This document shows, one piece after another, positions 2-11,938 of a stretch of 32,000 nt of DNA. Location: positions 150,001-182,000 of the forward strand of contig JAFGBS010000001.1 in NCBI GenBank assembly GCA_016933055.1. The letters run 5' to 3'. A program made the translations under genes and the position numbers. Every line of letters begins with the position of its first letter. The first letter of the stretch is position 1. Source of the stretch: Promethearchaeota archaeon (GTDB lineage Archaea; Asgardarchaeota; Lokiarchaeia; Sigyniarchaeales; Promethearchaeaceae). The notes beneath the pieces are model-generated. The model made no database searches. It worked only from the letters and a program-made list of their open reading frames with translations, and was not told the DNA's origin.

Positions 2-343
2 AGTGTTAAAGGAAAGGATAGAACAGAAACTAGTTTTTTTCTTCCCCAAATAGCAAAACGAATGGTTGATCTGATGCCTCGACTCAGCAATATAAAAGTT
101 CGTCGTCAGTGGAGAGGATTGTACCCGATGACTCCTGATGGAATTCCAATTGTTGGAACAGTAAAGAATATTGCTGGATATATAAATGCAGTAGGGATGT
201 GTGGTCAAGGTTTTATGTTAGGCCCTGGATTGGGGGAAGTTCTTTGCCGTTTGGTAGAAAAAAAAATTACATCCCAAGACAAGGAAATACTAAAAGAATT
301 CTCCCTTTATCGTGATTTTGGCAGTGAAGAGAAATTAAAATAA
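2..343 (+). CDS. FAD-dependent oxidoreductase, DAO family (sarcosine oxidase beta / proline dehydrogenase beta-like), 5'-truncated by the window edge
   Basis: The frame is open from base 2 (SVKGKDRTETSFFLPQIAKRMVD...). It carries the C-terminal DAO-family motifs QWRGLYPMTPDGIPIVG and AVGMCGQGFMLGPGLG. Confidence 0.8.
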   Translation, partial: SVKGKDRTETSFFLPQIAKRMVDLMPRLSNIKVRRQWRGLYPMTPDGIPIVGTVKNIAGYINAVGMCGQGFMLGPGLGEVLCRLVEKKITSQDKEILKEFSLYRDFGSEEKLK

Positions 344-1305: not shown

Positions 1306-2238
1306 ATGGTTAGACATCTCACTAAAATTTCTGATTTTACGAAAAAAGAATGTGATTTTATCATCCACAAGGCAATCGAGATGAAAAAAACACCCGAAAA
1401 ATTCTATGCTACTTTGCAACATAAAACTATGTTAATGATTTTCGAAAAACCCTCCTTACGAACTCGAGTCTCCTTTGAGACTGGATTAAATCAATTAGGT
1501 GGGCATGCAATTTACTACTCTATTAAGGATTCCCCTCTTGGAAAGAAAGAAAATATTGCAGATACAGCCCGATGCGCCAGTAGATATGTGGATATCATTG
1601 GAGCTCGTGTTTTTAAAAGACAAGATGTATGGAATCTTGCACAGTATTCGGATGTTCCAGTGATCAATATGTTAGATGACTTCGCACACCCATGTCAGAT
1701 TTTGTGTGATTTCCAAACAATCTTGGAGAAAAAGGGACGATTAGAAAATCTTAAACTCTCCTATTTCGGGGATGCGTATAATAACGTAACTTATGATTTG
1801 ATGAGAATAGCAGCGATCTATGGTTTGGAAATGGATGTGGCATGCCCTACCGGAGGAGAATATTCTCCCGAACAAGGTGTATTGAATGAAATTGCGAAAT
1901 TATCTGAAAAATCTGATGCAAAAGTGCGAGTGGTGCACGATGCATTAGAAGCAGCAAAAGAATCGGATGTATTATATACTGATTCATGGATGAGTTACGG
2001 AATTCCGTTCGATCAAGAAGAAGCACGTAAGAAAGTGTTTATGCCATTTCAAGTCAACCAGAAAGTACTTTCTTCTGCTAAAACTGATGCCATCTTCATG
2101 AATTGTTTACCTGCAATGAGAGGTTATGAACAAACCGCAGAAGTTATTGACGGACCTCAATCCATTGTTTTTGATCAAGCAGAAAACCGGTTACATGCTC
2201 AGAAAGCCATCATTTTATTCCTACTAAACAAATTATAA
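1306..2238 (+). CDS. arcB: Ornithine carbamoyltransferase, probably catabolic
   Basis: Carbamoyl-phosphate motif SLRT (SxRT), HPCQ, YTDSWMSY (SMG-loop equivalent), NCLP (HCLP equivalent) and AENRLH. It lies next to carbamate kinase. Confidence 0.92.
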   Translation: MVRHLTKISDFTKKECDFIIHKAIEMKKTPEKFYATLQHKTMLMIFEKPSLRTRVSFETGLNQLGGHAIYYSIKDSPLGKKENIADTARCASRYVDIIGARVFKRQDVWNLAQYSDVPVINMLDDFAHPCQILCDFQTILEKKGRLENLKLSYFGDAYNNVTYDLMRIAAIYGLEMDVACPTGGEYSPEQGVLNEIAKLSEKSDAKVRVVHDALEAAKESDVLYTDSWMSYGIPFDQEEARKKVFMPFQVNQKVLSSAKTDAIFMNCLPAMRGYEQTAEVIDGPQSIVFDQAENRLHAQKAIILFLLNKL

Positions 2239-2264
2239 CCTTATTTTTTCTTTGGTTGAATATA

Positions 2265-2879
2265 ATGAAAATTCATGACATTTCAATTTTAATTAACGAA
2301 AACATGCTCCTTTATCCAGGTGACAAATCCATTGAAATTCGGCAGGTGAAAAATGTAGACTCCAATGATTGGAATCTAACAAATATTACTCTAAGTTCCC
2401 ATTTAGGAACTCATGTGGATTCACCCAAACATGTTCTGAAGGATGGAATTGGAATCGATCAATTAGGGATTGAGAAATTCACTGGTAATTCACAAGTTTT
2501 AGACTTGCGTTCAATTCCCTTTGGGGAGAAAATCACCCAAAAACATCTTAAACCATATCTAATACAAAAAAATGATATCATCTTATTCAAAACGAGAAAT
2601 TCTTCTATTTTGAATGAGGGATATAATCCAAATCATGTAGAATTGAGTTTGCTTGGAGCACAATATTTGGTAGATTTGAAAATAAAGGCTGTTGCAATTG
2701 ATTATTTGAGTATTGGAACGAAAGATGTCCATGAGATGTTGCTGAAAAGTAATATTCTAATATATGAAACTGTGAATTTATCGGATATCGAAGCGGGAAA
2801 TTATTTTTTCATGGGATTACCATTAAAAATTCCGACTGAAGGAAGTCCAGTCAGAGCAGTTTTAATTCAAAACGCATAA
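2265..2879 (+). CDS. Cyclase family metal-dependent hydrolase (KynB/arylformamidase-like)
   Basis: HLGTHVDSPKH (HxGTHxD) and C-terminal PLKIPTEGSPVRAV. ATG 2265 is preferred over TTG 2256. Confidence 0.88.
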   Translation: MKIHDISILINENMLLYPGDKSIEIRQVKNVDSNDWNLTNITLSSHLGTHVDSPKHVLKDGIGIDQLGIEKFTGNSQVLDLRSIPFGEKITQKHLKPYLIQKNDIILFKTRNSSILNEGYNPNHVELSLLGAQYLVDLKIKAVAIDYLSIGTKDVHEMLLKSNILIYETVNLSDIEAGNYFFMGLPLKIPTEGSPVRAVLIQNA

Positions 2880-2974: not shown

Positions 2975-3940
2975 GTGATGAAAACTATCGTTATTGCATT
3001 AGGTGGCAATGCTCTCATTAAAAGAGGACAAAAAGGTACTGCAGATGAACAATTTCGTAACTTACAAGTCCCCATAAAACAAATTGCGAGGATGTCTACT
3101 GAATATAACATCATTATTACGCATGGAAATGGTCCGCAGGTTGGAAATTTACTAATTCAGCAAGAAACATGCGAATCAGATAAAATTGCAGAAATGCCCT
3201 TGGAAGTGTTAGTAGCACTAACACAAGGCCAAATTGGATTTATGATCGAAAGCACATTGGATAATGAGCTAATGAAGCTTGAGAACGAGAAATTACCTCC
3301 CGAAGAAAGAAAACTTTTTCTCACCGTTTTGACTTATGTTAAGGTCAGTCAAAGTGATCCAGCTTTTAAGAATCCCACAAAACCTATTGGTCCCGCATAT
3401 GATGAACCTAAAGACGGGTATGTACAGACTGCAAAAGGATGGCGAAGAGTAGTCCCTTCCCCAAAACCTTTGAAGATTTATCAATATCGCGAAATTAAGA
3501 AATTATTGGAAATGAATTTTATAGTTATCGCTTGTGGGGGCGGGGGGATCCCTGTTGTAAAGGAAAAAGTATTTGATATTGATCGGGATTTACAACTCGG
3601 AGAACGTTTGACCGGTGTTGAAGCAGTGATTGACAAAGATCTTGCTAGCGCTAAATTAGGAGAACAAATAGATGCAGATATTCTTTTAATTGCTACAGAT
3701 GAGGAGAAAGTTGCAATTAATTACAAACAACCAAATCAGCGATTTTTAGATAAAATTCCCATTGCTAAAGCCAAGGAATATATGAAACAAGGGCATTTTC
3801 CCGCGGGTTCAATGGGACCGAAAGTACAGGCAGCCATTAATTTTTTGGAAGCGGGTGGAGAGAGGGTTATTATTACTTCGATTGAAAAAATTGAAGACGC
3901 ATTAAATGGTAAAGCAGGGACTGAATTCTATTTGAACTAG
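2975..3940 (+). CDS. arcC: Carbamate kinase
   Basis: IALGGNAL, THGNGPQVG, KPIGP, GGGGIPV, AVIDKDLAS and GSMGPKV motifs. Start is GTG 2975 or ATG 2978. Confidence 0.96.
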   Translation: MMKTIVIALGGNALIKRGQKGTADEQFRNLQVPIKQIARMSTEYNIIITHGNGPQVGNLLIQQETCESDKIAEMPLEVLVALTQGQIGFMIESTLDNELMKLENEKLPPEERKLFLTVLTYVKVSQSDPAFKNPTKPIGPAYDEPKDGYVQTAKGWRRVVPSPKPLKIYQYREIKKLLEMNFIVIACGGGGIPVVKEKVFDIDRDLQLGERLTGVEAVIDKDLASAKLGEQIDADILLIATDEEKVAINYKQPNQRFLDKIPIAKAKEYMKQGHFPAGSMGPKVQAAINFLEAGGERVIITSIEKIEDALNGKAGTEFYLN

Positions 3941-3952
3941 CATTCTAATTTT

Positions 3953-5215
3953 CTACGTATCTTGCGCAACCAAGACTTTTTTAATGATCTTTAGTGCCCA
4001 GTCGATTTCATCCTTAGTGATCACTAATGGGGGTGCAAAACGTATGATGGTAGAATGTGTATCCTTAGCGAGTATACCATTGTGCATAAGGTCTTCTACT
4101 AGGAATCTGATATTCCCCTCGAATTCAATAGCGATTAAAAGTCCTTTTCCCCTTATTTCTTTGACTGGTATTCTTGTTTTATTCTCGGCAATAGCTTTAA
4201 GTCCATCGATGAAATATTTTCCTAACTCTTTAGCTCTTTTAGCTAAATTTCCTCCGATCATTACCTCTAGAGCCTTCATACCAACCGCTGCACCAAGAGG
4301 ATTTCCCCCAAAGGTGCTTCCGTGTGTTCCTGGGGGGATAACGTCGGGACCTATTATTTCACGAGTAGTAACCACTGCAGAAACTGGATATACTCCTCCA
4401 CCGAGTGCCTTACCTAATAAAAACATATCTGGTTTGACATTCTCATGATCAACAGCAAATAATTCTCCAGTTCTACATAATCCTGTTTGGATCTCATCCA
4501 CTATCATTAACATATTATATTTTGAGCAGATGGACCTCACGTTCTTAAGGTATCCTATCGGAGGTATTTTTACTCCCGCTTCCCCTTGGATAGGTTCTAA
4601 TAAAAATGCCACAACATATTGGGGACCGATCTTCTGAATTTCTTTCTCTAATGCCGAAACATCCCCATAAGGAATGATAGAAAACCCTGGAGTAAAAGGT
4701 CCGAAATTTTCATCATGTCGGGTTATGGGATCTGAACTGATACCACAAATCGTGATAGTTCTCCCATGAAAGTTATCCGAACATGCAATTATATGAGCTT
4801 TCTCTTTGGGGATTTGTTTTTTAATGTATCCCCATGCACGTGCCACCTTTAAACCAGTTTCAACTGCTTCAGCACCTGTATTCATAGGTAAAGCCATTAC
4901 TTTGCTTCCATTCAATGTTAAATGGGGTTCTACTAACTCACATACTTGTTTTAAGAACGGTCCCATCACATCATTGTGAAAAGCGCGGGAAGTCAGCGTT
5001 ACCTTATCCAATTGATCTTTCATTGCTTGAATAATTTCCGGATGCAAATGACCAGTATTTTGACTGGAATATGCACTTAAACAATCGAGATACTTTTTTC
5101 CTTCGGGATCAAAAACCCATACCCCTTTTGCACGGGATATTACAACAGGAATCGGATGATAATTATGTGCCCCGTATTCGTGATCCATCTTAATATAATC
5201 TTTCGAGTTCCGCAT
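3953..5215 (-). CDS. rocD: Ornithine--oxo-acid aminotransferase (class III PLP enzyme)
   Basis: YGAHNYHPIPVV, LSAYS, MNTGAEAVETGLKVARAWGY, FHGRT, DEIQTG, PLP lysine in LGKALGGG, and HGSTFGGNPL. Confidence 0.93.
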   Translation of the reverse strand: MRNSKDYIKMDHEYGAHNYHPIPVVISRAKGVWVFDPEGKKYLDCLSAYSSQNTGHLHPEIIQAMKDQLDKVTLTSRAFHNDVMGPFLKQVCELVEPHLTLNGSKVMALPMNTGAEAVETGLKVARAWGYIKKQIPKEKAHIIACSDNFHGRTITICGISSDPITRHDENFGPFTPGFSIIPYGDVSALEKEIQKIGPQYVVAFLLEPIQGEAGVKIPPIGYLKNVRSICSKYNMLMIVDEIQTGLCRTGELFAVDHENVKPDMFLLGKALGGGVYPVSAVVTTREIIGPDVIPPGTHGSTFGGNPLGAAVGMKALEVMIGGNLAKRAKELGKYFIDGLKAIAENKTRIPVKEIRGKGLLIAIEFEGNIRFLVEDLMHNGILAKDTHSTIIRFAPPLVITKDEIDWALKIIKKVLVAQDT

Positions 5216-5335: not shown

Positions 5336-6412
5336 ATGGTGCAGAGAGATGCTGGATCCATAACAATGGAAGAAATATGGCAGATTCCTGAAATGCTTCA
5401 AAGGGTACTAAAACCTAAAAATCAGATCTGCGATTTAGTCGATAAAATTCTTGAAAATGAGATTAAATCCATTCATCTTGTCGGAGATGGAACTTCCTAT
5501 CACGCTGGATTTCTAGGCTCTTATTTGTTCAATCAATTATGCAAGATTAAGTCATTTGCAGAAGTATCCCCTGAATTTCCTTACTTAGTGGGTTCGATAC
5601 TAAACAAGGAAGATCTCGTAATTGGGATTAGCCAGAGTGGTGAGAGCGAAATGACGGTAGAATCACTAAAGGTCGCAAGATCTATGGGGTGTCTCACTGC
5701 AACAATTTCCAATTATACAGATAGCAGTTTAGCTAAATTATCCGATAATGTACTGGAACTGAAATGTACAAAAGAGAAAAGTGTTCTCGCGACCAAAACC
5801 TATGTAAACACTTTGGGGGTTTTAAGTAGGTTAGCACTAGAGTTAGCGTATATGAATAAAAAAATAAATGAGGATATATATTCTACTACTCTGCAAGAAT
5901 TAAAGGCAATTCCAGATATAATCAAGAATTCTCTGCAACATTTTCGAAAGCAAGTTCGTCACTTTGCCCCCTATTTTAAATTTGCTCCCATATGTTTTGT
6001 ACTAGGATCTGGACCAGATTACGGTTCTGCTCTAGAAATATCGCTAAAATTAATCGAAGGTGCAAGAATCTTTTCCCAAGCTTATTCAACAGCAGAATTT
6101 CCCCATGGCCCCATTACTCTTGCAGATCAATCCTCTTGGATCCTTGCGATTATCCCTGGGGGGGGAGATCGTCGTAAATCCATTTTAAAATTACTTGATA
6201 AAGTCAAGGATCGCGGAGCTACTCTCATGAGTCTTTACACAACAGAAATTATGGATAATGTAGATTTTGGTATTCATATTCCCCGTACAAATATGATGTT
6301 TCAACCGATGGTGTGTATAGTACCAGTCCAAATGTTGACCGTGGAAATTGCATTAGAGAAAGGGATTAATCCAGATAAACCCAAGTGGCTATCAAAAGTC
6401 TCAAGTGTCTAG
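5336..6412 (+). CDS. Stand-alone double-SIS sugar-phosphate isomerase/deaminase (GlmS isomerase-domain-like, no glutaminase domain)
   Basis: GTSYHAG, ISQSGES, ATKTY, LKLIE, EFPHGP and C-terminal GINPDKPKWLSKV. At 358 aa it has no N-terminal Ntn glutaminase. Confidence 0.88.
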   Translation: MVQRDAGSITMEEIWQIPEMLQRVLKPKNQICDLVDKILENEIKSIHLVGDGTSYHAGFLGSYLFNQLCKIKSFAEVSPEFPYLVGSILNKEDLVIGISQSGESEMTVESLKVARSMGCLTATISNYTDSSLAKLSDNVLELKCTKEKSVLATKTYVNTLGVLSRLALELAYMNKKINEDIYSTTLQELKAIPDIIKNSLQHFRKQVRHFAPYFKFAPICFVLGSGPDYGSALEISLKLIEGARIFSQAYSTAEFPHGPITLADQSSWILAIIPGGGDRRKSILKLLDKVKDRGATLMSLYTTEIMDNVDFGIHIPRTNMMFQPMVCIVPVQMLTVEIALEKGINPDKPKWLSKVSSV

Positions 6413-6428
6413 AATTATTAAAAAATGG

Positions 6429-7130
6429 TTACTTTGGAGTAGCTTGCAGTAACCAACCCGCGCAAAACATATCAATTTGATACTTTTTTCCTTGAAACAT
6501 CATGTTATCAAACTGATGCCAATATTTCTTAAGCATAGGCATGTCCGACATCGGAACCGGCTTAAAACCTACCGGCCAATAATCACTTACCTGCAATCCA
6601 TTCTTCTCACAAGTTTCTACCAACTGTTCTATTGTGAGTAGTCTTCGATGACCTTGACGTATATCATGAATATCAGGGGTTTGGGGGTTCTCTATAAATC
6701 CATTACATGCTCCCATTATTCGATTTAAACTCCAAGGGTTGGGGATGGATATAAATAGATTTCCTCTCTTCTTAAGAAAACTTCTAGCTAATTTTAAATG
6801 TGTGTTTTCATCTAATGCTTCTTCTATCGTTCCGAATAGCAAAACCACATCGAATTTTTTCTCAGTTTGAAAATCTTCCAATGTACTGATATGATATTCA
6901 AAATTCTCTCCCTTAAGTGGCTCTTTCAAGTCTTTATCAATTCCTACGTATTTTTGCATTATTCGACCCACTCTTCGGTAAACGGTTTCCGTTTCCCCAC
7001 ATCCCACATCCAGAACAGTAGCATCAATTAAAAATTTATAAATAATTTTGATTTTTAAATCTGCGATATGCTTATCGTATGCGTTTTCATAGGTGATTCG
7101 TTCTTTTTGAATATCTTCTGATTTCTCCAT
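6429..7130 (-). CDS. Class I SAM-dependent methyltransferase
   Basis: Motif I VLDVGCG, VGIDKD, FDVVLLFGTIE, LFISIPN and GHRR. Confidence 0.88.
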   Translation of the reverse strand: MEKSEDIQKERITYENAYDKHIADLKIKIIYKFLIDATVLDVGCGETETVYRRVGRIMQKYVGIDKDLKEPLKGENFEYHISTLEDFQTEKKFDVVLLFGTIEEALDENTHLKLARSFLKKRGNLFISIPNPWSLNRIMGACNGFIENPQTPDIHDIRQGHRRLLTIEQLVETCEKNGLQVSDYWPVGFKPVPMSDMPMLKKYWHQFDNMMFQGKKYQIDMFCAGWLLQATPK

Positions 7131-7219
7131 GTTTTAATCCCTGTTGATGATTGGTCATACATTTTTAATGTAAACTATAAATCATAAAGGTTTTTGGTAA
7201 TGCGGAGACTTCATACACT

Positions 7220-8038
7220 ATGAGTTCAAGAGTGCGCGATTTTCCCAGTGCTCGGGATCTAATGACTCGTTTTGTATTAATGTTGCCTTCTACTGCGAAT
7301 TTTGGGGACCTAATTGAATTAATGTATAAAAATAGGGTTTCTGCAGTGGTTATTAACGATCCCGAAACCCAGAACTATTTTATAGTCTCGCACACCGATG
7401 TAATTGAATTTCTCCAATACTCCAAATCTCAACGCAATGATATATACAATATACCTCTTAAATTCATCATGAAATCTCCAGTTGAGATTATTGATCAGAA
7501 TATAAGCATCGATAAAGCTATTCATATGATGAACGAACGAGGATTTAAACGTTTGGTTCTTGGGAAGAACGGAATCCCGACCGGAATTATAAGCACACGC
7601 GATATTCTGATGTGGAATAACAAATTTTTTCGTCCTGGAAAACCCGTTATGCTATTAGTACTGGACAATGACACGAGTATTCTTCTCGCTAAACATATCT
7701 TTAAAGAAAATATAACGCGTGGAATTAATCAAAGCTTAGTAGAGATTTTCGGAGGGGCAATTGCTTCCATAAATTCGATCACAAATGAGGTCATCAATAC
7801 AGATGGTAAGATACGAATTCTTCAAAAAGACAATTTTACAGTGTTATTCGAACCTCGGGATAAAATTACAGCTTTATTAGTAACGACAAATAGTAATATT
7901 GAGTTACGTCGTCGACTTTTTGCTTTCGTGGAAGCGATATCTGAAAAATACCGATCCTTATTTGAATCTACCGAATATAAAAATCATGCTAAGGAAGAAA
8001 TTGATATATTAGAATGGATTCATCTATTTAATGGGTAA
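7220..8038 (+). CDS. CBS-pair protein with C-terminal longin-like domain
   Basis: aa ~11-133 form two CBS repeats (ARDLMT...IVSHTDVI; KFIMKSPV...GIISTRDIL). aa ~141-270 show the longin-like beta-beta-alpha-beta-beta-beta-alpha pattern (MLLVLD...ILLAKH...IFGGAIASINSITNE...FTVLFE...TALLV...LRRRLFAFVEAISEKY). Confidence 0.75.
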   Translation: MSSRVRDFPSARDLMTRFVLMLPSTANFGDLIELMYKNRVSAVVINDPETQNYFIVSHTDVIEFLQYSKSQRNDIYNIPLKFIMKSPVEIIDQNISIDKAIHMMNERGFKRLVLGKNGIPTGIISTRDILMWNNKFFRPGKPVMLLVLDNDTSILLAKHIFKENITRGINQSLVEIFGGAIASINSITNEVINTDGKIRILQKDNFTVLFEPRDKITALLVTTNSNIELRRRLFAFVEAISEKYRSLFESTEYKNHAKEEIDILEWIHLFNG

Positions 8039-9857: not shown

Positions 9858-10802
9858 TTAACTAAGGGGAAGCAGCATTTCATAATATTTTTTTATATTT
9901 TTTATAACCCACCACGTGGATTTGAACCCTTGAATGGCTGCTTTCTGGAGAGTAGCTTCTAAGAACTCTCGGTTCGGATAATTGGGTGGTACCTTAAGAT
10001 GTAATTCACGTATATTGTATAAAGATCGCCACAATTGAATTGACCAATCAACAAGCTTGAGAATTTTTTTATTATACAATTGTTTAGATTCCGTTGGAAG
10101 ATCAAAATCCATTATCCATTTATAGAAAAAAGTACCTTTTCCGTATATTTCTTCATCCTTTCTTCGTATACGATGCTTCTCAATTACCCCATGATCTTCC
10201 AATTCATACATTATGTTTTGAAGCTCCGCTTTACTAATTGTAAAACCATTGGATTCCAATTTAATAATGATTTTAAGATCACTAAGCCCTTTCAATTTCA
10301 TCATGGATTTATTTAAAGCTACCACAATGTATTTTTTGTCGATTAAATCTTGTTCCGAGGAAATAAACTGTAGTAATGAACCGATAAATTTTTCAGCAGT
10401 CATATATCTAACGGGATCGCGATCCTGTCGCTTAAAATCCTTAATAAATTGTCTAGATTCGTGGAAATAGGTATTAAATATAGTAGAAACTACGTTTCTG
10501 ATTAAATAGTAACCATCAATTAATGCAGTCTCCAATCCAGAGAGTAATTCAATTTTTCCTTGAATGGACTCATCAAATTTTCGTTTTTCAGCTGGAAACC
10601 GACGCATGGTATGAGGATTTGGGTTAATATCTTTAAAACTAGCCTCCCATAATTCCTCAAAAAACACATAGTGGGTATTTACTAAAGTCGACTCTCGTTT
10701 GATGATCTCCCAAAGTGTTCGTGTAAAGAGATCTTTCTCCGAGTCCTCACTCACATTTCTAACCTCAATTAGTCCTTTTCCCTCATTATTTTGGTTTACC
10801 AA
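9858..10802 (-). CDS. Hypothetical protein, helical N-terminus plus probable winged-helix domain
   Basis: 314-aa ORF. The segment ISKAELQNIMYELEDHGVIEK...FFYKW fits a wHTH recognition helix plus wing. The TTG start overlaps the upstream stop, so the start is uncertain. Confidence 0.65.
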   Translation of the reverse strand: MVNQNNEGKGLIEVRNVSEDSEKDLFTRTLWEIIKRESTLVNTHYVFFEELWEASFKDINPNPHTMRRFPAEKRKFDESIQGKIELLSGLETALIDGYYLIRNVVSTIFNTYFHESRQFIKDFKRQDRDPVRYMTAEKFIGSLLQFISSEQDLIDKKYIVVALNKSMMKLKGLSDLKIIIKLESNGFTISKAELQNIMYELEDHGVIEKHRIRRKDEEIYGKGTFFYKWIMDFDLPTESKQLYNKKILKLVDWSIQLWRSLYNIRELHLKVPPNYPNREFLEATLQKAAIQGFKSTWWVIKNIKKYYEMLLPLS

Positions 10803-11938
10803 CCAGGAGTGGCGGATTTTTCCACTTTGACATCAAAGTTAAAATCATATTGATCCAATCCTAATTCCTGTTTCATTTGGAGAAATTGTTTTTGAGTCTC
10901 TTTAGAGATTGGTACTCCTTTATTCTTTCTTTCTTGGTATGCTAAATATTCTTTTTCACCTGCAATATATATATGGTCGGCACCAGGTGCTTTTTTGGCA
11001 TTAGCAAGCTGTCTTAGTAAATCTCCCGTGATTCTCTTAAATTTCTCTAAATCAATCATGGAATTTATGTCGATAGCAAAGAAGAAGTGTCCAAGATTAT
11101 AAGGGACGAATTCTCCGTTGACAATACCCAAACAAGCTTGTAAATAGTTAGACTCAGTTAAGCAGGCAGACAAGATTTCGACAAAAGTAGCATAATTATA
11201 TCCTTTATATCCGGCGAGATCCTCCCCGATTCCTCCTAATGGAGTCAATGCTGCCTTAAATTCTAACATTTTTTTCAAAATTACTGGAGCATCTGTTGCA
11301 GCATTACCATTCTCATCAATAACCCATCCGGGGATTGCTTCTTTTCCAATACGTGCATAAGTTTCGATTTTTCCGCGTTGAGTAATAGAAGTGGCATGAT
11401 CCGCACACCAGTGAAATTTCCAGTCGGTCGGTAATGCAATTGTTAACGGATTAGTTCCTAACATTGGTTCTACTGACCAAGTAGGTGCAATAGATGGTCG
11501 AGCATTTGTACCACAAATTCCTATACAACCTTGATCTGCAGCCATAAGTGCATAGTAACCCGCAATACCGAAATGATTACTGTTACCCACCACAACCAAA
11601 CCTATTCCGTTCTTTTTTGCTTTATCAATCGCAGATTGCATAGCTTTTTTACTAACGACATGTCCCATTCCATTTCCTGCATCCCAACGAGCTGTTCCAG
11701 GGTTATCCTTTATTACAGTTATTTTGGTAGTAGAAAGTTGTTGTCCTCGCTTAATACGGGCATAATACATCATTAATCGTCCAACACCATGAGAATCAAT
11801 GCCTCGTTTATCCGATGTGATTAATACGTCTGCTACCACTTTCGCATCTTCTTCGGGAACTCCAGTTCCCATCATCACATCTTTCATGAAACGTTCAAGT
11901 GTATCAAAATCGACATAAGTATATTCTTCTTCTGACAT
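10796..11938 (-). CDS. Ldh_2 family oxidoreductase (type-2 malate/L-lactate/sulfolactate dehydrogenase family)
   Basis: DKRGIDSHGV, DAGNGMGH, NSNHFGIAGYY, LGTNPL, PLGG...GYKGY and PGADHIYIAGEKE. Confidence 0.92.
   Translation of the reverse strand: MSEEEYTYVDFDTLERFMKDVMMGTGVPEEDAKVVADVLITSDKRGIDSHGVGRLMMYYARIKRGQQLSTTKITVIKDNPGTARWDAGNGMGHVVSKKAMQSAIDKAKKNGIGLVVVGNSNHFGIAGYYALMAADQGCIGICGTNARPSIAPTWSVEPMLGTNPLTIALPTDWKFHWCADHATSITQRGKIETYARIGKEAIPGWVIDENGNAATDAPVILKKMLEFKAALTPLGGIGEDLAGYKGYNYATFVEILSACLTESNYLQACLGIVNGEFVPYNLGHFFFAIDINSMIDLEKFKRITGDLLRQLANAKKAPGADHIYIAGEKEYLAYQERKNKGVPISKETQKQFLQMKQELGLDQYDFNFDVKVEKSATPGW

What the first reader, a model, noticed from the sequence alone, without database searches (positions are those of the whole stretch)
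1306..2238. OTC carries the signatures of the anaerobic-protist (Giardia-type) catabolic enzyme
Seen: SLRT instead of the usual STRT, GGHAIYY, NNVTYDLMR, YTDSWMSY, IFMNCLPA (Asn in place of the His of HCLP) and EQTAEVIDGP. From memory, this exact combination matches the arginine-deiminase-pathway OTC of Giardia and other metamonads, not canonical bacterial or archaeal ArgF. Inference: this is an Asgard member of the clade behind the eukaryotic ADI-pathway OTC, which bears on an archaeal origin of that pathway.
Basis: partly seen in the sequence, partly recalled or inferred. Interest (0 to 1): 0.62.

Follow-up and report, generated by a model that had tools for sequence, protein, structure and literature searches.

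The report
Giardia-type ornithine carbamoyltransferase in Asgard archaeon
This Asgard archaeon's ornithine carbamoyltransferase belongs to the same unusual enzyme lineage as that of Giardia and other anaerobic protists, a link first published in 2016, but here it appears to work with an ATP-yielding arginine synthetase rather than with arginine deiminase.

Summary
Window 1306-2238 (+) encodes a 310-aa OTC with all six quoted motifs, and its best solved relative is Giardia OTC (3GRF), which has the same variants.

An ML tree places it in a 16-sequence Asgard clade that is sister to a eukaryotic OTC group containing six metamonads. The union has 100/96 support. An AU test rejects grouping it with the canonical OTCs of other Asgard families (p 0.00095).

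- SLRT is not diagnostic. DSWMSY[GH], MNCLPA and EQTAEVIDGP also occur in DPANN-type outgroups. Only NNVTYDLMR marks the Asgard+eukaryote clade.
- Novák et al. 2016 already placed a Lokiarchaeum OTC in this eukaryotic group, so the relationship is not new.
- In 151 sampled Asgard genomes the type occurs only in the window's own order.
- No arginine deiminase, argG or argH was found in this genome.
- The gene sits in a conserved cluster: ArcE-like ligase, aldehyde oxidoreductase plus proline-dehydrogenase-like pair, OTC, carbamate kinase, ornithine aminotransferase.

The OTC is therefore most likely the catabolic ArcB of the arginine synthetase pathway (Michimori 2024), not of an ADI pathway. 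This is a new member of a known kind, of moderate interest.

The parts
1306..2238 (+). Ornithine carbamoyltransferase, 310 aa, Giardia/eukaryote-type (P0001); proposed ArcB of an arginine synthetase pathway
   Evidence: ORF. (TIGR00658 358.5 bits against cut-off 280.85; NF001986 364 against 306). (3GRF is the best PDB hit and shares the motifs). (phylogeny, identities, motif table, AU test).
2256..2879 (+). Cyclase/arylformamidase-like metal hydrolase (207 aa, HxGTHxDxPxH), inserted between OTC and CK; an accessory gene, not a core part
   Evidence: PF04199, E 1.5e-18. (TIGR03035 109.6 bits, below cut-off 223). (found at this position in only 1 of 80 related loci, L009, 47% identity).
2975..3940 (+). 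Carbamate kinase (321 aa), same strand as OTC; converts carbamoyl phosphate plus ADP to ATP
   Evidence: NF009007 310 bits against cut-off 266; TIGR00746 355.9 against 358.25. (CK lies downstream of OTC in 67 of 80 related loci).
3953..5215 (-). Ornithine--oxo-acid aminotransferase (420 aa), convergent with CK; removes the ornithine made by OTC
   Evidence: TIGR01885 518 bits against cut-off 378.4. (present beside CK in 57 of 80 loci).
2..343 (+). C-terminal end of a 388-aa FAD-dependent oxidoreductase (DAO family). With the preceding 698-aa Fe-S flavoprotein it forms a proline-dehydrogenase-like pair. Further upstream, outside the window, lie an aldehyde:ferredoxin oxidoreductase and the ArcE-like ligase (G000:C16:143248-144669, i.e. 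5.3-6.8 kb before window base 1).
   Evidence: Pfam. (DAO in 65, Fe-S flavoprotein in 58, AFOR in 44 and ArcE-like in 27 of 80 loci within 7-kb flanks). (ArcE-like fold).

Best explanation
The gene encodes a genuine ornithine carbamoyltransferase of the divergent lineage also used by Giardia and many other eukaryotes. In this Lokiarchaeia-type Asgard it is most likely the middle enzyme of an arginine-fermenting module that works without arginine deiminase. The proposed steps are as follows. An ArcE-like P-loop ligase converts arginine + ADP + Pi to citrulline + NH3 + ATP. The OTC phosphorolyses citrulline to ornithine + carbamoyl phosphate. The adjacent carbamate kinase makes a second ATP. The adjacent ornithine aminotransferase passes ornithine on to glutamate semialdehyde/P5C, which the neighbouring proline-dehydrogenase-like flavoenzyme and aldehyde:ferredoxin oxidoreductase could process further. 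What is shown: enzyme family, clade membership, gene neighbourhood, co-occurrence, and absence of detectable ADI, argG and argH. What is inferred: the direction of flux, the ArcE activity and the fate of ornithine. In evolutionary terms, the Asgard clade is sister to the eukaryotic metamonad-containing OTC group, and DPANN-type archaeal sequences lie outside both.
For: Enzyme identity: the protein passes two curated OTC models. It keeps SxRTR, HPxQ and the Lys two residues before SxRT (criteria from PMC3282769 and PMC4581275). Its best solved relative is Giardia OTC 3GRF, which has identical SYG/NCLP-type variants and for which kinetic properties are published (Galkin 2009, cited in PMC7818446). 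Clade: a careful ML tree (LG+C20+F+G4) gives the Asgard clade 100/99, the Asgard+eukaryote union 100/96 and the eukaryote side 97/77. The AU test gives p 0.00095 against all-Asgard monophyly. Identities to metamonads are 55-63%. Catabolic context: CK lies downstream in 67/80 loci and OAT in 57/80. The own genome (91% complete) has one OTC, no PF02274 ADI, no argG and no argH above cut-off. Only 2 of 19 sampled genomes with this OTC type have argG. ArcE link: the ArcE-like gene lies directly upstream of OTC in Promethearchaeum syntrophicum MK-D1, Lokiarchaeum ossiferum and 8 other loci. In the own genome and 10 others it sits in the order ArcE-AFOR-FeS flavoprotein-DAO-OTC. Within the window's order, 18 of 19 genomes with this OTC have it and 0 of 9 genomes without the OTC do. 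Its AF2 model (pLDDT 82) hits cDPG synthetase (E 2e-16) and then LpxK 4EHX/4EHY (E 1e-8). These are the same relatives that Michimori et al. 2024 (PMC11032458) report for characterised ArcE TK2200, and that paper also notes arcE homologs in Lokiarchaeota, some located near arcB/arcC.
Against: No activity was measured for any of these proteins. The ArcE-like protein matches no Pfam or NCBIfam model and could not be aligned to TK2200, because no reference sequence was reachable and the last homolog search returned only 'GTPase' or 'cDPG synthase' names. The arginine synthetase reaction is close to equilibrium (dG0' -6.8 kJ/mol, PMC11032458). The genome also has a carbamoyl-phosphate synthetase, so the module could run towards arginine. 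The SMG loop Met-to-Tyr and HCLP His-to-Asn changes have not been examined structurally here. The genome is 91% complete, so the absences are not proven.
Confidence: 0.7

Rival explanations
1. Anabolic or bidirectional use. The OTC makes citrulline from ornithine (supplied through OAT from glutamate or proline) and carbamoyl phosphate. The ArcE-like enzyme then runs in reverse to make arginine, replacing the missing argininosuccinate synthetase and lyase.
For: argG and argH were not found although the cell needs arginine. carB is present. Michimori 2024 showed that ArcE supports arginine synthesis in vivo when citrulline is supplied. OTCs are reversible.
Against: CK is tightly linked to OTC (67/80 loci), and Michimori et al. 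use CK as the marker of the catabolic route. The cluster is embedded in amino-acid-oxidising genes (AFOR, proline-dehydrogenase-like pair, OAT). The closest characterised relative, the Giardia enzyme, serves catabolism.
Confidence: 0.2
2. The Asgard-eukaryote sister relation reflects lateral transfer rather than vertical descent from the Asgard ancestor of eukaryotes. Candidate routes are from a DPANN-like archaeon into one Asgard order and into early eukaryotes, or directly between Lokiarchaeia and eukaryotes.
For: In 151 sampled Asgard genomes the type occurs only in the window's order (f1 3/3, f2 16/25). All 20 tested OTCs from other families are canonical (STRTR/SMG/HCLP, 40-50% identity). 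The AU test rejects Asgard monophyly. The nearest outgroups include Woesearchaeota and Aenigmarchaeota sequences. Novak 2016 found the Lokiarchaeum CK not allied with eukaryotic CKs and could not exclude transfer.
Against: Asgard and eukaryote groups are reciprocally monophyletic sisters and neither is nested in the other, which is what vertical descent predicts. The gene order OTC then CK in Asgards matches the domain order of eukaryotic OTC-CK fusion proteins (Naegleria P0277; P0122/P0271). Loss or replacement in other Asgard lineages is possible.
Confidence: 0.5
3. It is a carbamoyltransferase for another amine (putrescine, N-acetyl- or N-succinyl-ornithine, or an unknown substrate), as the altered SMG and HCLP motifs might suggest.
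For: DxxxSMG is DSWMSYG and HCLP is NCLP. The putrescine carbamoyltransferase model scores 284 bits.
Against: That score is far below the PTC cut-off of 500. AOTCase scores 179.5 against a cut-off of 288 and YgeW about 45 against 453-500. The Lys before SxRT that PTCs lack is present, and there is no PTC C-terminal extension (criteria in PMC3282769). The same motif variants occur in the Giardia OTC, a kinetically characterised OTC. No agmatine deiminase was found.
Confidence: 0.04

Closest known systems
Giardia lamblia catabolic OTC (PDB 3GRF; Galkin et al. 2009) and the metamonad-containing eukaryotic OTC group of Novak et al. 2016
   Same: Shares the motif set GGHAI[FY]Y, NNVTYDLMR, DSWMSY[GH], MNCLPA and EQTAEVIDGP. 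It is the best PDB hit (300 bits). Identity to Paratrimastix, Monocercomonoides, Pyrsonympha, Trimastix, Histomonas and Aduncisulcus OTCs is 55-63%. The two groups are sister clades with 100/96 support for the union. OTC is paired with carbamate kinase.
   Different: The host is an archaeon. The upstream enzyme is an ArcE-like ligase, not arginine deiminase. The genes are clustered in an operon-like array. Some eukaryotes (Histomonas, Naegleria, GEM-RC1) have reverted to HCLP/EVT.
Lokiarchaeum sp. GC14_75 OTC as placed by Novak et al. 2016 (PMC5052871)
   Same: Same Asgard clade. The LCGC14 marine-sediment sequence P0066 is 74% identical to the window protein and falls in the 16-row Asgard clade. 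The conclusion that it groups with the eukaryotic ADI-type OTCs is the same.
   Different: In 2016 a single sequence sat at an unsupported position inside the group. Here 16 Asgard sequences form a supported sister clade. The restriction to one order and the ArcE partnership are additional.
Arginine synthetase pathway of Thermococcus kodakarensis (ArcE TK2200, ArcB TK0871, ArcC TK2158; Michimori et al. 2024, PMC11032458; PMC13260591)
   Same: No ADI. An ArcE-family protein plus OTC plus CK are present. Ornithine is passed on towards proline/glutamate. The ArcE-like protein has the same structural neighbours (LpxK, cDPG synthetase).
   Different: The Thermococcales OTC looks canonical: the solved P. 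furiosus OTC has STRT/SMG/HCLP in the alignment (T. kodakarensis TK0871 itself was not examined here), whereas here it is the Giardia type. The genes are clustered here. This genome also has a CPS, which T. kodakarensis lacks. Orthology to TK2200 was not shown by direct alignment.
Canonical archaeal ArgF (e.g. Pyrococcus furiosus OTC, PDB 1A1S/1PVV) and the OTCs of other Asgard families
   Same: Same fold and family, same length, with conserved SxRTR, HPxQ and CLP. P. furiosus OTC is the second-best PDB hit (282 bits).
   Different: The canonical enzymes have the STRTR, NNVxHS, DxWxSMG, MHCLPA and E[VI]T motifs. Identity is 40-50%. They fall in separate clades, and the AU test rejects a union with other Asgard OTCs.

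Membership tests
Ornithine carbamoyltransferase (EC 2.1.3.3; TIGR00658 / NF001986) | Score above the curated whole-protein cut-offs | tested here: met
   TIGR00658 scores 358.5 against 280.85; NF001986 scores 364 against 306.
Ornithine carbamoyltransferase (EC 2.1.3.3; TIGR00658 / NF001986) | Carbamoyl-phosphate motifs SxRTR and HPxQ | tested here: met
   SLRTR at 50-54 and HPCQ at 128-131.
Ornithine carbamoyltransferase (EC 2.1.3.3; TIGR00658 / NF001986) | Lys two residues before SxRT (FxKxSxRT), which pairs with the ornithine alpha-carboxylate and is absent in putrescine carbamoyltransferases | tested here: met
   FEKPSLRT, with K48. The criterion comes from PMC3282769 and PMC4581275.
Ornithine carbamoyltransferase (EC 2.1.3.3; TIGR00658 / NF001986) | DxxxSMG ornithine loop and HCLP motif | tested here: inconclusive
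   DSWMSYG keeps Asp and Ser but has Tyr for Met. NCLP keeps Cys-Leu-Pro but has Asn for His. The same variants occur in Giardia OTC 3GRF, which is published as a kinetically characterised OTC, so they are probably compatible with the activity.
Ornithine carbamoyltransferase (EC 2.1.3.3; TIGR00658 / NF001986) | Catalysis of ornithine + carbamoyl phosphate <-> citrulline + Pi | not testable with these tools
   Needs an enzyme assay.
Giardia-type / eukaryotic 'second group' OTC clade (Novak et al. 2016) | Branches with metamonad OTCs to the exclusion of ordinary bacterial and archaeal OTCs | tested here: met
   The 49-row Asgard+eukaryote clade has 100/96 support and includes six named metamonads. 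FastTree and the quick tree agree. Giardia itself is not in the tree.
Giardia-type / eukaryotic 'second group' OTC clade (Novak et al. 2016) | Shared sequence signature (GGHAI[FY]Y, NNVTYDLMR, DSWMSY[GH], MNCLPA, EQTAEVIDGP) | tested here: met
   All five motifs are present. NNVTYDLMR is confined to the Asgard+eukaryote clade, while the other four also occur in DPANN-type outgroups.
Arginine deiminase (ADI, arcABC) pathway | An arginine deiminase (PF02274 / arcA) in the genome | tested here: not met
   No match at E <= 0.01 in the own genome, which is 91% complete. No full-length ADI was found in any of the 19 sampled genomes with this OTC type; 6 have weak hits to DDAH-like ORFs of roughly 220-290 aa.
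Arginine deiminase (ADI, arcABC) pathway | Catabolic OTC linked to carbamate kinase | tested here: met
   CK lies 737 bp downstream on the same strand in the window, and downstream of OTC in 67/80 loci.
Arginine synthetase pathway (ArcE-ArcB-ArcC; Michimori et al. 2024) | An ArcE (TK2200-family) protein | tested here: inconclusive
   A 446-474-aa P-loop protein (RTGCGKS) lies 6.6 kb upstream. Its fold neighbours are cDPG synthetase and LpxK, as published for TK2200p. Homologs are named 'GTPase' or 'cDPG synthase'. It shows synteny and co-occurrence with OTC. It was not aligned to TK2200 and no activity was measured.
Arginine synthetase pathway (ArcE-ArcB-ArcC; Michimori et al. 2024) | OTC and CK present while ADI is absent | tested here: met
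Putrescine carbamoyltransferase | No Lys before STRT, a 230-loop (Y/W)(G/W)(V/L/I), a ~20-residue C-terminal helix, and a score above the TIGR04384 cut-off | tested here: not met
   The Lys is present. The loop is SWMSYG. The protein ends at residue 310 without an extension, whereas PTC chains are 339-359 aa. TIGR04384 scores 284 against 500.
N-acetyl/N-succinyl-ornithine carbamoyltransferase and YgeW (knotted transcarbamylases) | Score above the curated cut-offs | tested here: not met
   NF003384 scores 179.5 against 288. The YgeW models score 45-46 against 453-500.

The most novel reading that the evidence does not exclude
The cytosolic arginine-fermenting OTC of LECA descended vertically from a Lokiarchaeia-like Asgard ArcE-OTC-CK module. 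Eukaryotes later swapped the ATP-conserving arginine synthetase for arginine deiminase and, in some lineages, fused OTC to CK in the ancestral gene order. This would make the OTC one of the few energy-metabolism enzymes traceable to the archaeal host.
Probability: 0.2. Interest if true: 0.65.

Novelty: new member of a known kind. Interest (0 to 1): 0.4.

Why it matters
Few catabolic enzymes of anaerobic eukaryotes trace to the archaeal host rather than to bacteria. The metamonad-type OTC is one candidate. This locus shows that its Asgard sister lineage is real, well supported and present in the cultured Promethearchaeum and Lokiarchaeum.

Three points sharpen the published 2016 picture:
- In the sample the Asgard version is restricted to one order.
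- It is nested among DPANN-type archaeal relatives.
- It is wired to an arginine synthetase-like enzyme, not to ADI.

The question can now be tested in cultured Asgards by arginine tracing and enzyme assays. Any claim of an "archaeal origin of the ADI pathway" must treat OTC, CK and the arginine-to-citrulline step separately.

Tried and rejected
1. **The cyclase-family hydrolase between OTC and CK as a non-homologous arginine deiminase.** Rejected. It occupies this position in only 1 of 80 related loci. The OTC-CK gap elsewhere holds unrelated accessory genes: TPR-TIR, VapBC, GH2, CitMHS, MFS and LRR.
2. **SLRT as a signature.** Rejected. It is frequent in ordinary OTCs.
3. **A broad Asgard distribution suggested by NCBI titles (Hod-, Hermod-, Odin-, Heimdall-, Helarchaeota).** Rejected for the two titles I could check. 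The 'Hermodarchaeota DZ1M.51' and 'Odinarchaeota H3B.4' MAGs are the same genomes as G057 and G099, which fall in the window's GTDB order.
5. **Reading Galkin 2009 (PMC2753476).** The paper is not held.
7. **Naming the nearest outgroups.** The cluster look-up returned no organism names.
8. **Reaching T. kodakarensis TK2200 through a divergent (Odinarchaeum) ArcE-like query.** The top 120 hits were Odin- and Bathyarchaeia 'GTPase' proteins only.
9. **Bacterial-type promoter and terminator scan.** No signal above shuffles.
Full report
**Observation**

Window 1306-2238 (+) is a clean ATG-started ORF of 310 aa. It passes the curated OTC models (TIGR00658 358.5 against 280.85; NF001986 364 against 306). 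It falls far below those for putrescine, N-acetylornithine and YgeW carbamoyltransferases.

Against all PDB sequences the best hit is 3GRF, the Giardia lamblia OTC (300 bits, E 1e-88), ahead of Pyrococcus furiosus OTC (282 bits). The printed alignment shows that Giardia has the same variants at every quoted motif, whereas Pyrococcus has the canonical STRT, NNVAHSLM, DVWASMG, MHCLPA and EVT.

**What the signature really marks**

I built a motif table over 106 aligned OTCs. It shows three things.
- SLRT is widespread in ordinary OTCs and is not diagnostic.
- GGHAI[FY]Y, DSWMSY[GH], MNCLPA and EQTAEVIDGP are shared by the Asgard clade, by the eukaryotic group, and by a set of outgroups that includes Woesearchaeota and Aenigmarchaeota sequences.
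- NNVTYDLMR is confined to the Asgard+eukaryote clade, and the outgroups have NNVTHSL-type sequences.

The OTC-defining Lys two residues before SxRT is present (FEKPSLRT), and there is no PTC-type C-terminal extension (criteria in PMC3282769 and PMC4581275).

**Phylogeny**

An exhaustive search of 50%-identity representatives and a second word-based search seeded with a eukaryotic member supplied named eukaryotes:
- the metamonads Paratrimastix, Monocercomonoides, Pyrsonympha, Trimastix, Histomonas and Aduncisulcus;
- Mastigamoeba, Naegleria, Euglypha and Aureococcus.

The window protein is 55-63% identical to the metamonad enzymes, 58% to a Woesearchaeota sequence and 46% to the nearest ordinary representative.

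FastTree on 195 rows, a quick IQ-TREE run and a careful IQ-TREE run under LG+C20+F+G4 (PMSF) on 86 rows agree. In the careful tree:
- 16 Asgard sequences form a clade (100/99);
- that clade is sister to a 33-row eukaryotic group (97/77);
- the union has 100/96 support;
- next come two unnamed sequences and then the DPANN-type clade, all within a 62-row clade (100/97).

The bootstrap had not fully converged (correlation 0.98), so the values are approximate.

I then added 20 OTCs from other Asgard families and forced all Asgard OTCs together. This costs 390.7 log-likelihood units and is rejected (p-AU 0.00095).

**Prior knowledge**

Novak et al. 2016 (PMC5052871) already placed a Lokiarchaeum OTC inside the well-supported eukaryotic group that holds all Metamonada, at an unsupported internal position. 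They noted that no Lokiarchaeum ADI was available and that its CK did not ally with eukaryotic CKs. They proposed, cautiously, an Archaea-derived ADI pathway in LECA. The relationship is thus known. This window adds another member and, through the comparisons made here, a clearer sister-group topology.

**Distribution**

Among 151 evenly sampled genomes of the phylum, OTCs 65-100% identical to the window's occur only in its own GTDB order (family f1 3/3, f2 16/25). Every other family has OTCs of 40-50% identity. All 20 that I extracted are canonical (STRTR or SLRTR, SMG, HCLP or HDLP).

NCBI titles in the 80 related loci suggest a wider spread (Hod-, Hermod-, Odin- and Helarchaeota; even Bdellovibrionota and Acidobacteriota). 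However, two of these MAGs are demonstrably the same genomes that GTDB places in the window's order (identical contig coordinates). The cultured Promethearchaeum syntrophicum MK-D1 and Lokiarchaeum ossiferum both carry the gene (69-70% identity).

**Genomic context and likely function**

In the window, OTC is followed on the same strand by a cyclase-family hydrolase, then carbamate kinase, then a convergent ornithine aminotransferase. Across the 80 loci the counts are as follows.

| Gene | Loci with the gene (of 80) |
|---|---|
| CK downstream of OTC | 67 |
| OAT next to CK | 57 |
| DAO-family flavoenzyme upstream of OTC | 65 |
| Cyclase between OTC and CK | 1 |

The OTC-CK gap is an insertion hot spot for unrelated genes.

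The own genome is 91% complete. Searches of it gave these results:
- one OTC plus an ATCase-like paralogue;
- no ADI-family gene;
- no argG;
- no argH above cut-off;
- no agmatine deiminase;
- one arginase-fold gene;
- a carB.

Only 2 of the 19 sampled genomes with this OTC type have argG. None has a full-length ADI. So the enzyme is uncoupled from classical arginine biosynthesis, and the ADI pathway as such is not present.

**The missing first step**

ArcE is the arginine synthetase discovered in Thermococcus kodakarensis. It catalyses arginine + ADP + Pi <-> citrulline + NH3 + ATP and replaces ADI in organisms that have CK but no ArcA. Its homologs were noted in Lokiarchaeota, sometimes beside arcB/arcC (PMC11032458; PMC13260591).

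I tested this lead.
- The ORF (G000:C16:143248-144669; probable start at Met29; P-loop RTGCGKS) matches no Pfam or NCBIfam model.
- By sequence it weakly hits only cyclic 2,3-diphosphoglycerate synthetase in the PDB (E 1.8e-4).
- Its nearest Atlas clusters are 'putative GTPase' and 'cDPG synthase'.
- An AlphaFold2 model (pLDDT 82) finds cDPG synthetase (E 2e-16) and then LpxK 4EHX/4EHY (E 1e-8) as its best folds. These are exactly the relatives published for TK2200p.
- It lies directly upstream of OTC in MK-D1, L. ossiferum and eight other loci. In the own genome and ten others the order is ArcE-like, aldehyde:ferredoxin oxidoreductase, Fe-S flavoprotein, DAO, OTC.
- In the phylum sample it occurs in 127 of 151 genomes. 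Within the window's order it is in 18 of 19 genomes that have this OTC type and in 0 of 9 that lack it.

I could not align it with TK2200 itself, so membership in the ArcE family is probable, not proven.

**Best-supported mechanism (confidence about 0.7)**

Arginine is converted to citrulline with ATP gain by the ArcE-like enzyme. The Giardia-type OTC phosphorolyses citrulline. CK harvests a second ATP. OAT, and perhaps the proline-dehydrogenase-like pair and the aldehyde oxidoreductase, dispose of ornithine.

The main functional rival is the same module running towards arginine in a genome lacking argG and argH (about 0.2). A different amine substrate is unlikely (about 0.04).

**Evolutionary reading**

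The OTC tree fits descent of the eukaryotic enzyme from an Asgard-like host: the two groups are reciprocal sisters, and OTC-CK fusion proteins in Naegleria and a Mastigamoeba-like sequence have the Asgard gene order.

Other facts keep lateral transfer equally plausible. The type is restricted to one Asgard order. Its nearest outgroups are DPANN-type archaea. No ADI was found. The Lokiarchaeum CK was published as not allied with eukaryotic CKs.

**Verdict**

The feature is a new member of a known kind, not a discovery. Moderate added value comes from the ArcE partnership and the narrow distribution.

Noticed in passing
window 2256-2879 (+): A cyclase/arylformamidase-family metal hydrolase (HxGTHxDxPxH) is wedged between OTC and CK. 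It is shared only with the closest relative L009 (47% identity), and its substrate is unknown.
   Followed up: partly
L015, L019-L023, L027, L030, L032, L036, L044, L046 (between OTC at ~7001-7930 and CK): The OTC-CK intergenic region is an insertion hot spot in related Asgard genomes. It holds TPR-TIR proteins (7 loci), VapB/VapC-PIN pairs (5-7 loci), a GH2 glycosidase, CitMHS and MFS transporters, a radical-SAM protein and LRR proteins.
   Followed up: partly
P0277 (Naegleria fowleri, 713 aa), P0122/P0271 (637 aa, metagenome, sister to Mastigamoeba OTC): These are eukaryotic OTC-carbamate kinase fusion proteins with OTC at the N-terminus, matching the Asgard gene order OTC then CK. Their CK parts are 36-41% identical to the window's CK.
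   Followed up: partly
L011, L018, L025, L038, L047, L068, L082, L087 (record titles): NCBI titles of MAGs carrying this OTC (Hermod-, Odin-, Hod- and Helarchaeota, Undinarchaeales, Bdellovibrionota, Acidobacteriota) disagree with the gene's otherwise order-specific distribution. Two of them (L011 = G057, L018 = G099) are placed by GTDB in the window's order. The 2.9-Mb 'Bdellovibrionota' chromosome OY764265.1 carries OTC (73%), CK and an ArcE-like gene and may be mislabelled.
   Followed up: partly
G046:C29:104522-106130 and G081:C71:11598-13206 (Asgard family f7): An ADI-superfamily gene of ~334 aa lies next to an atypical carbamoyltransferase with WNMIHSWGI and ITFISMG motifs (like representative P0242). 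This may be a different ureido-compound pathway.
   Followed up: no
G060:C49:10456-12680 (Asgard family f12): A full-length arginine deiminase (E 6e-47) sits adjacent to a canonical OTC, in a genome that also has an ArcE-like gene and a second OTC. This is a rare Asgard genome with both routes.
   Followed up: no
phylum sample: Many Asgard families (e.g. f7 26/26, f12 18/19) have a canonical OTC and an ArcE-like gene but no argG. This suggests the arginine synthetase route is the common Asgard way of linking arginine and citrulline.
   Followed up: partly
window 10796-11938 (-): An Ldh_2-family dehydrogenase (PF02615, E 1e-114). The family includes pyrroline- and piperideine-2-carboxylate reductases, so this gene may belong to the same proline/ornithine metabolism.
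   Followed up: no
window 5336-6412 (+): A stand-alone SIS-domain protein matches only the C-terminal isomerase half of GlmS (residues 256-597 of the model) and has no glutaminase domain. It is probably a sugar-phosphate isomerase or deaminase.
   Followed up: no
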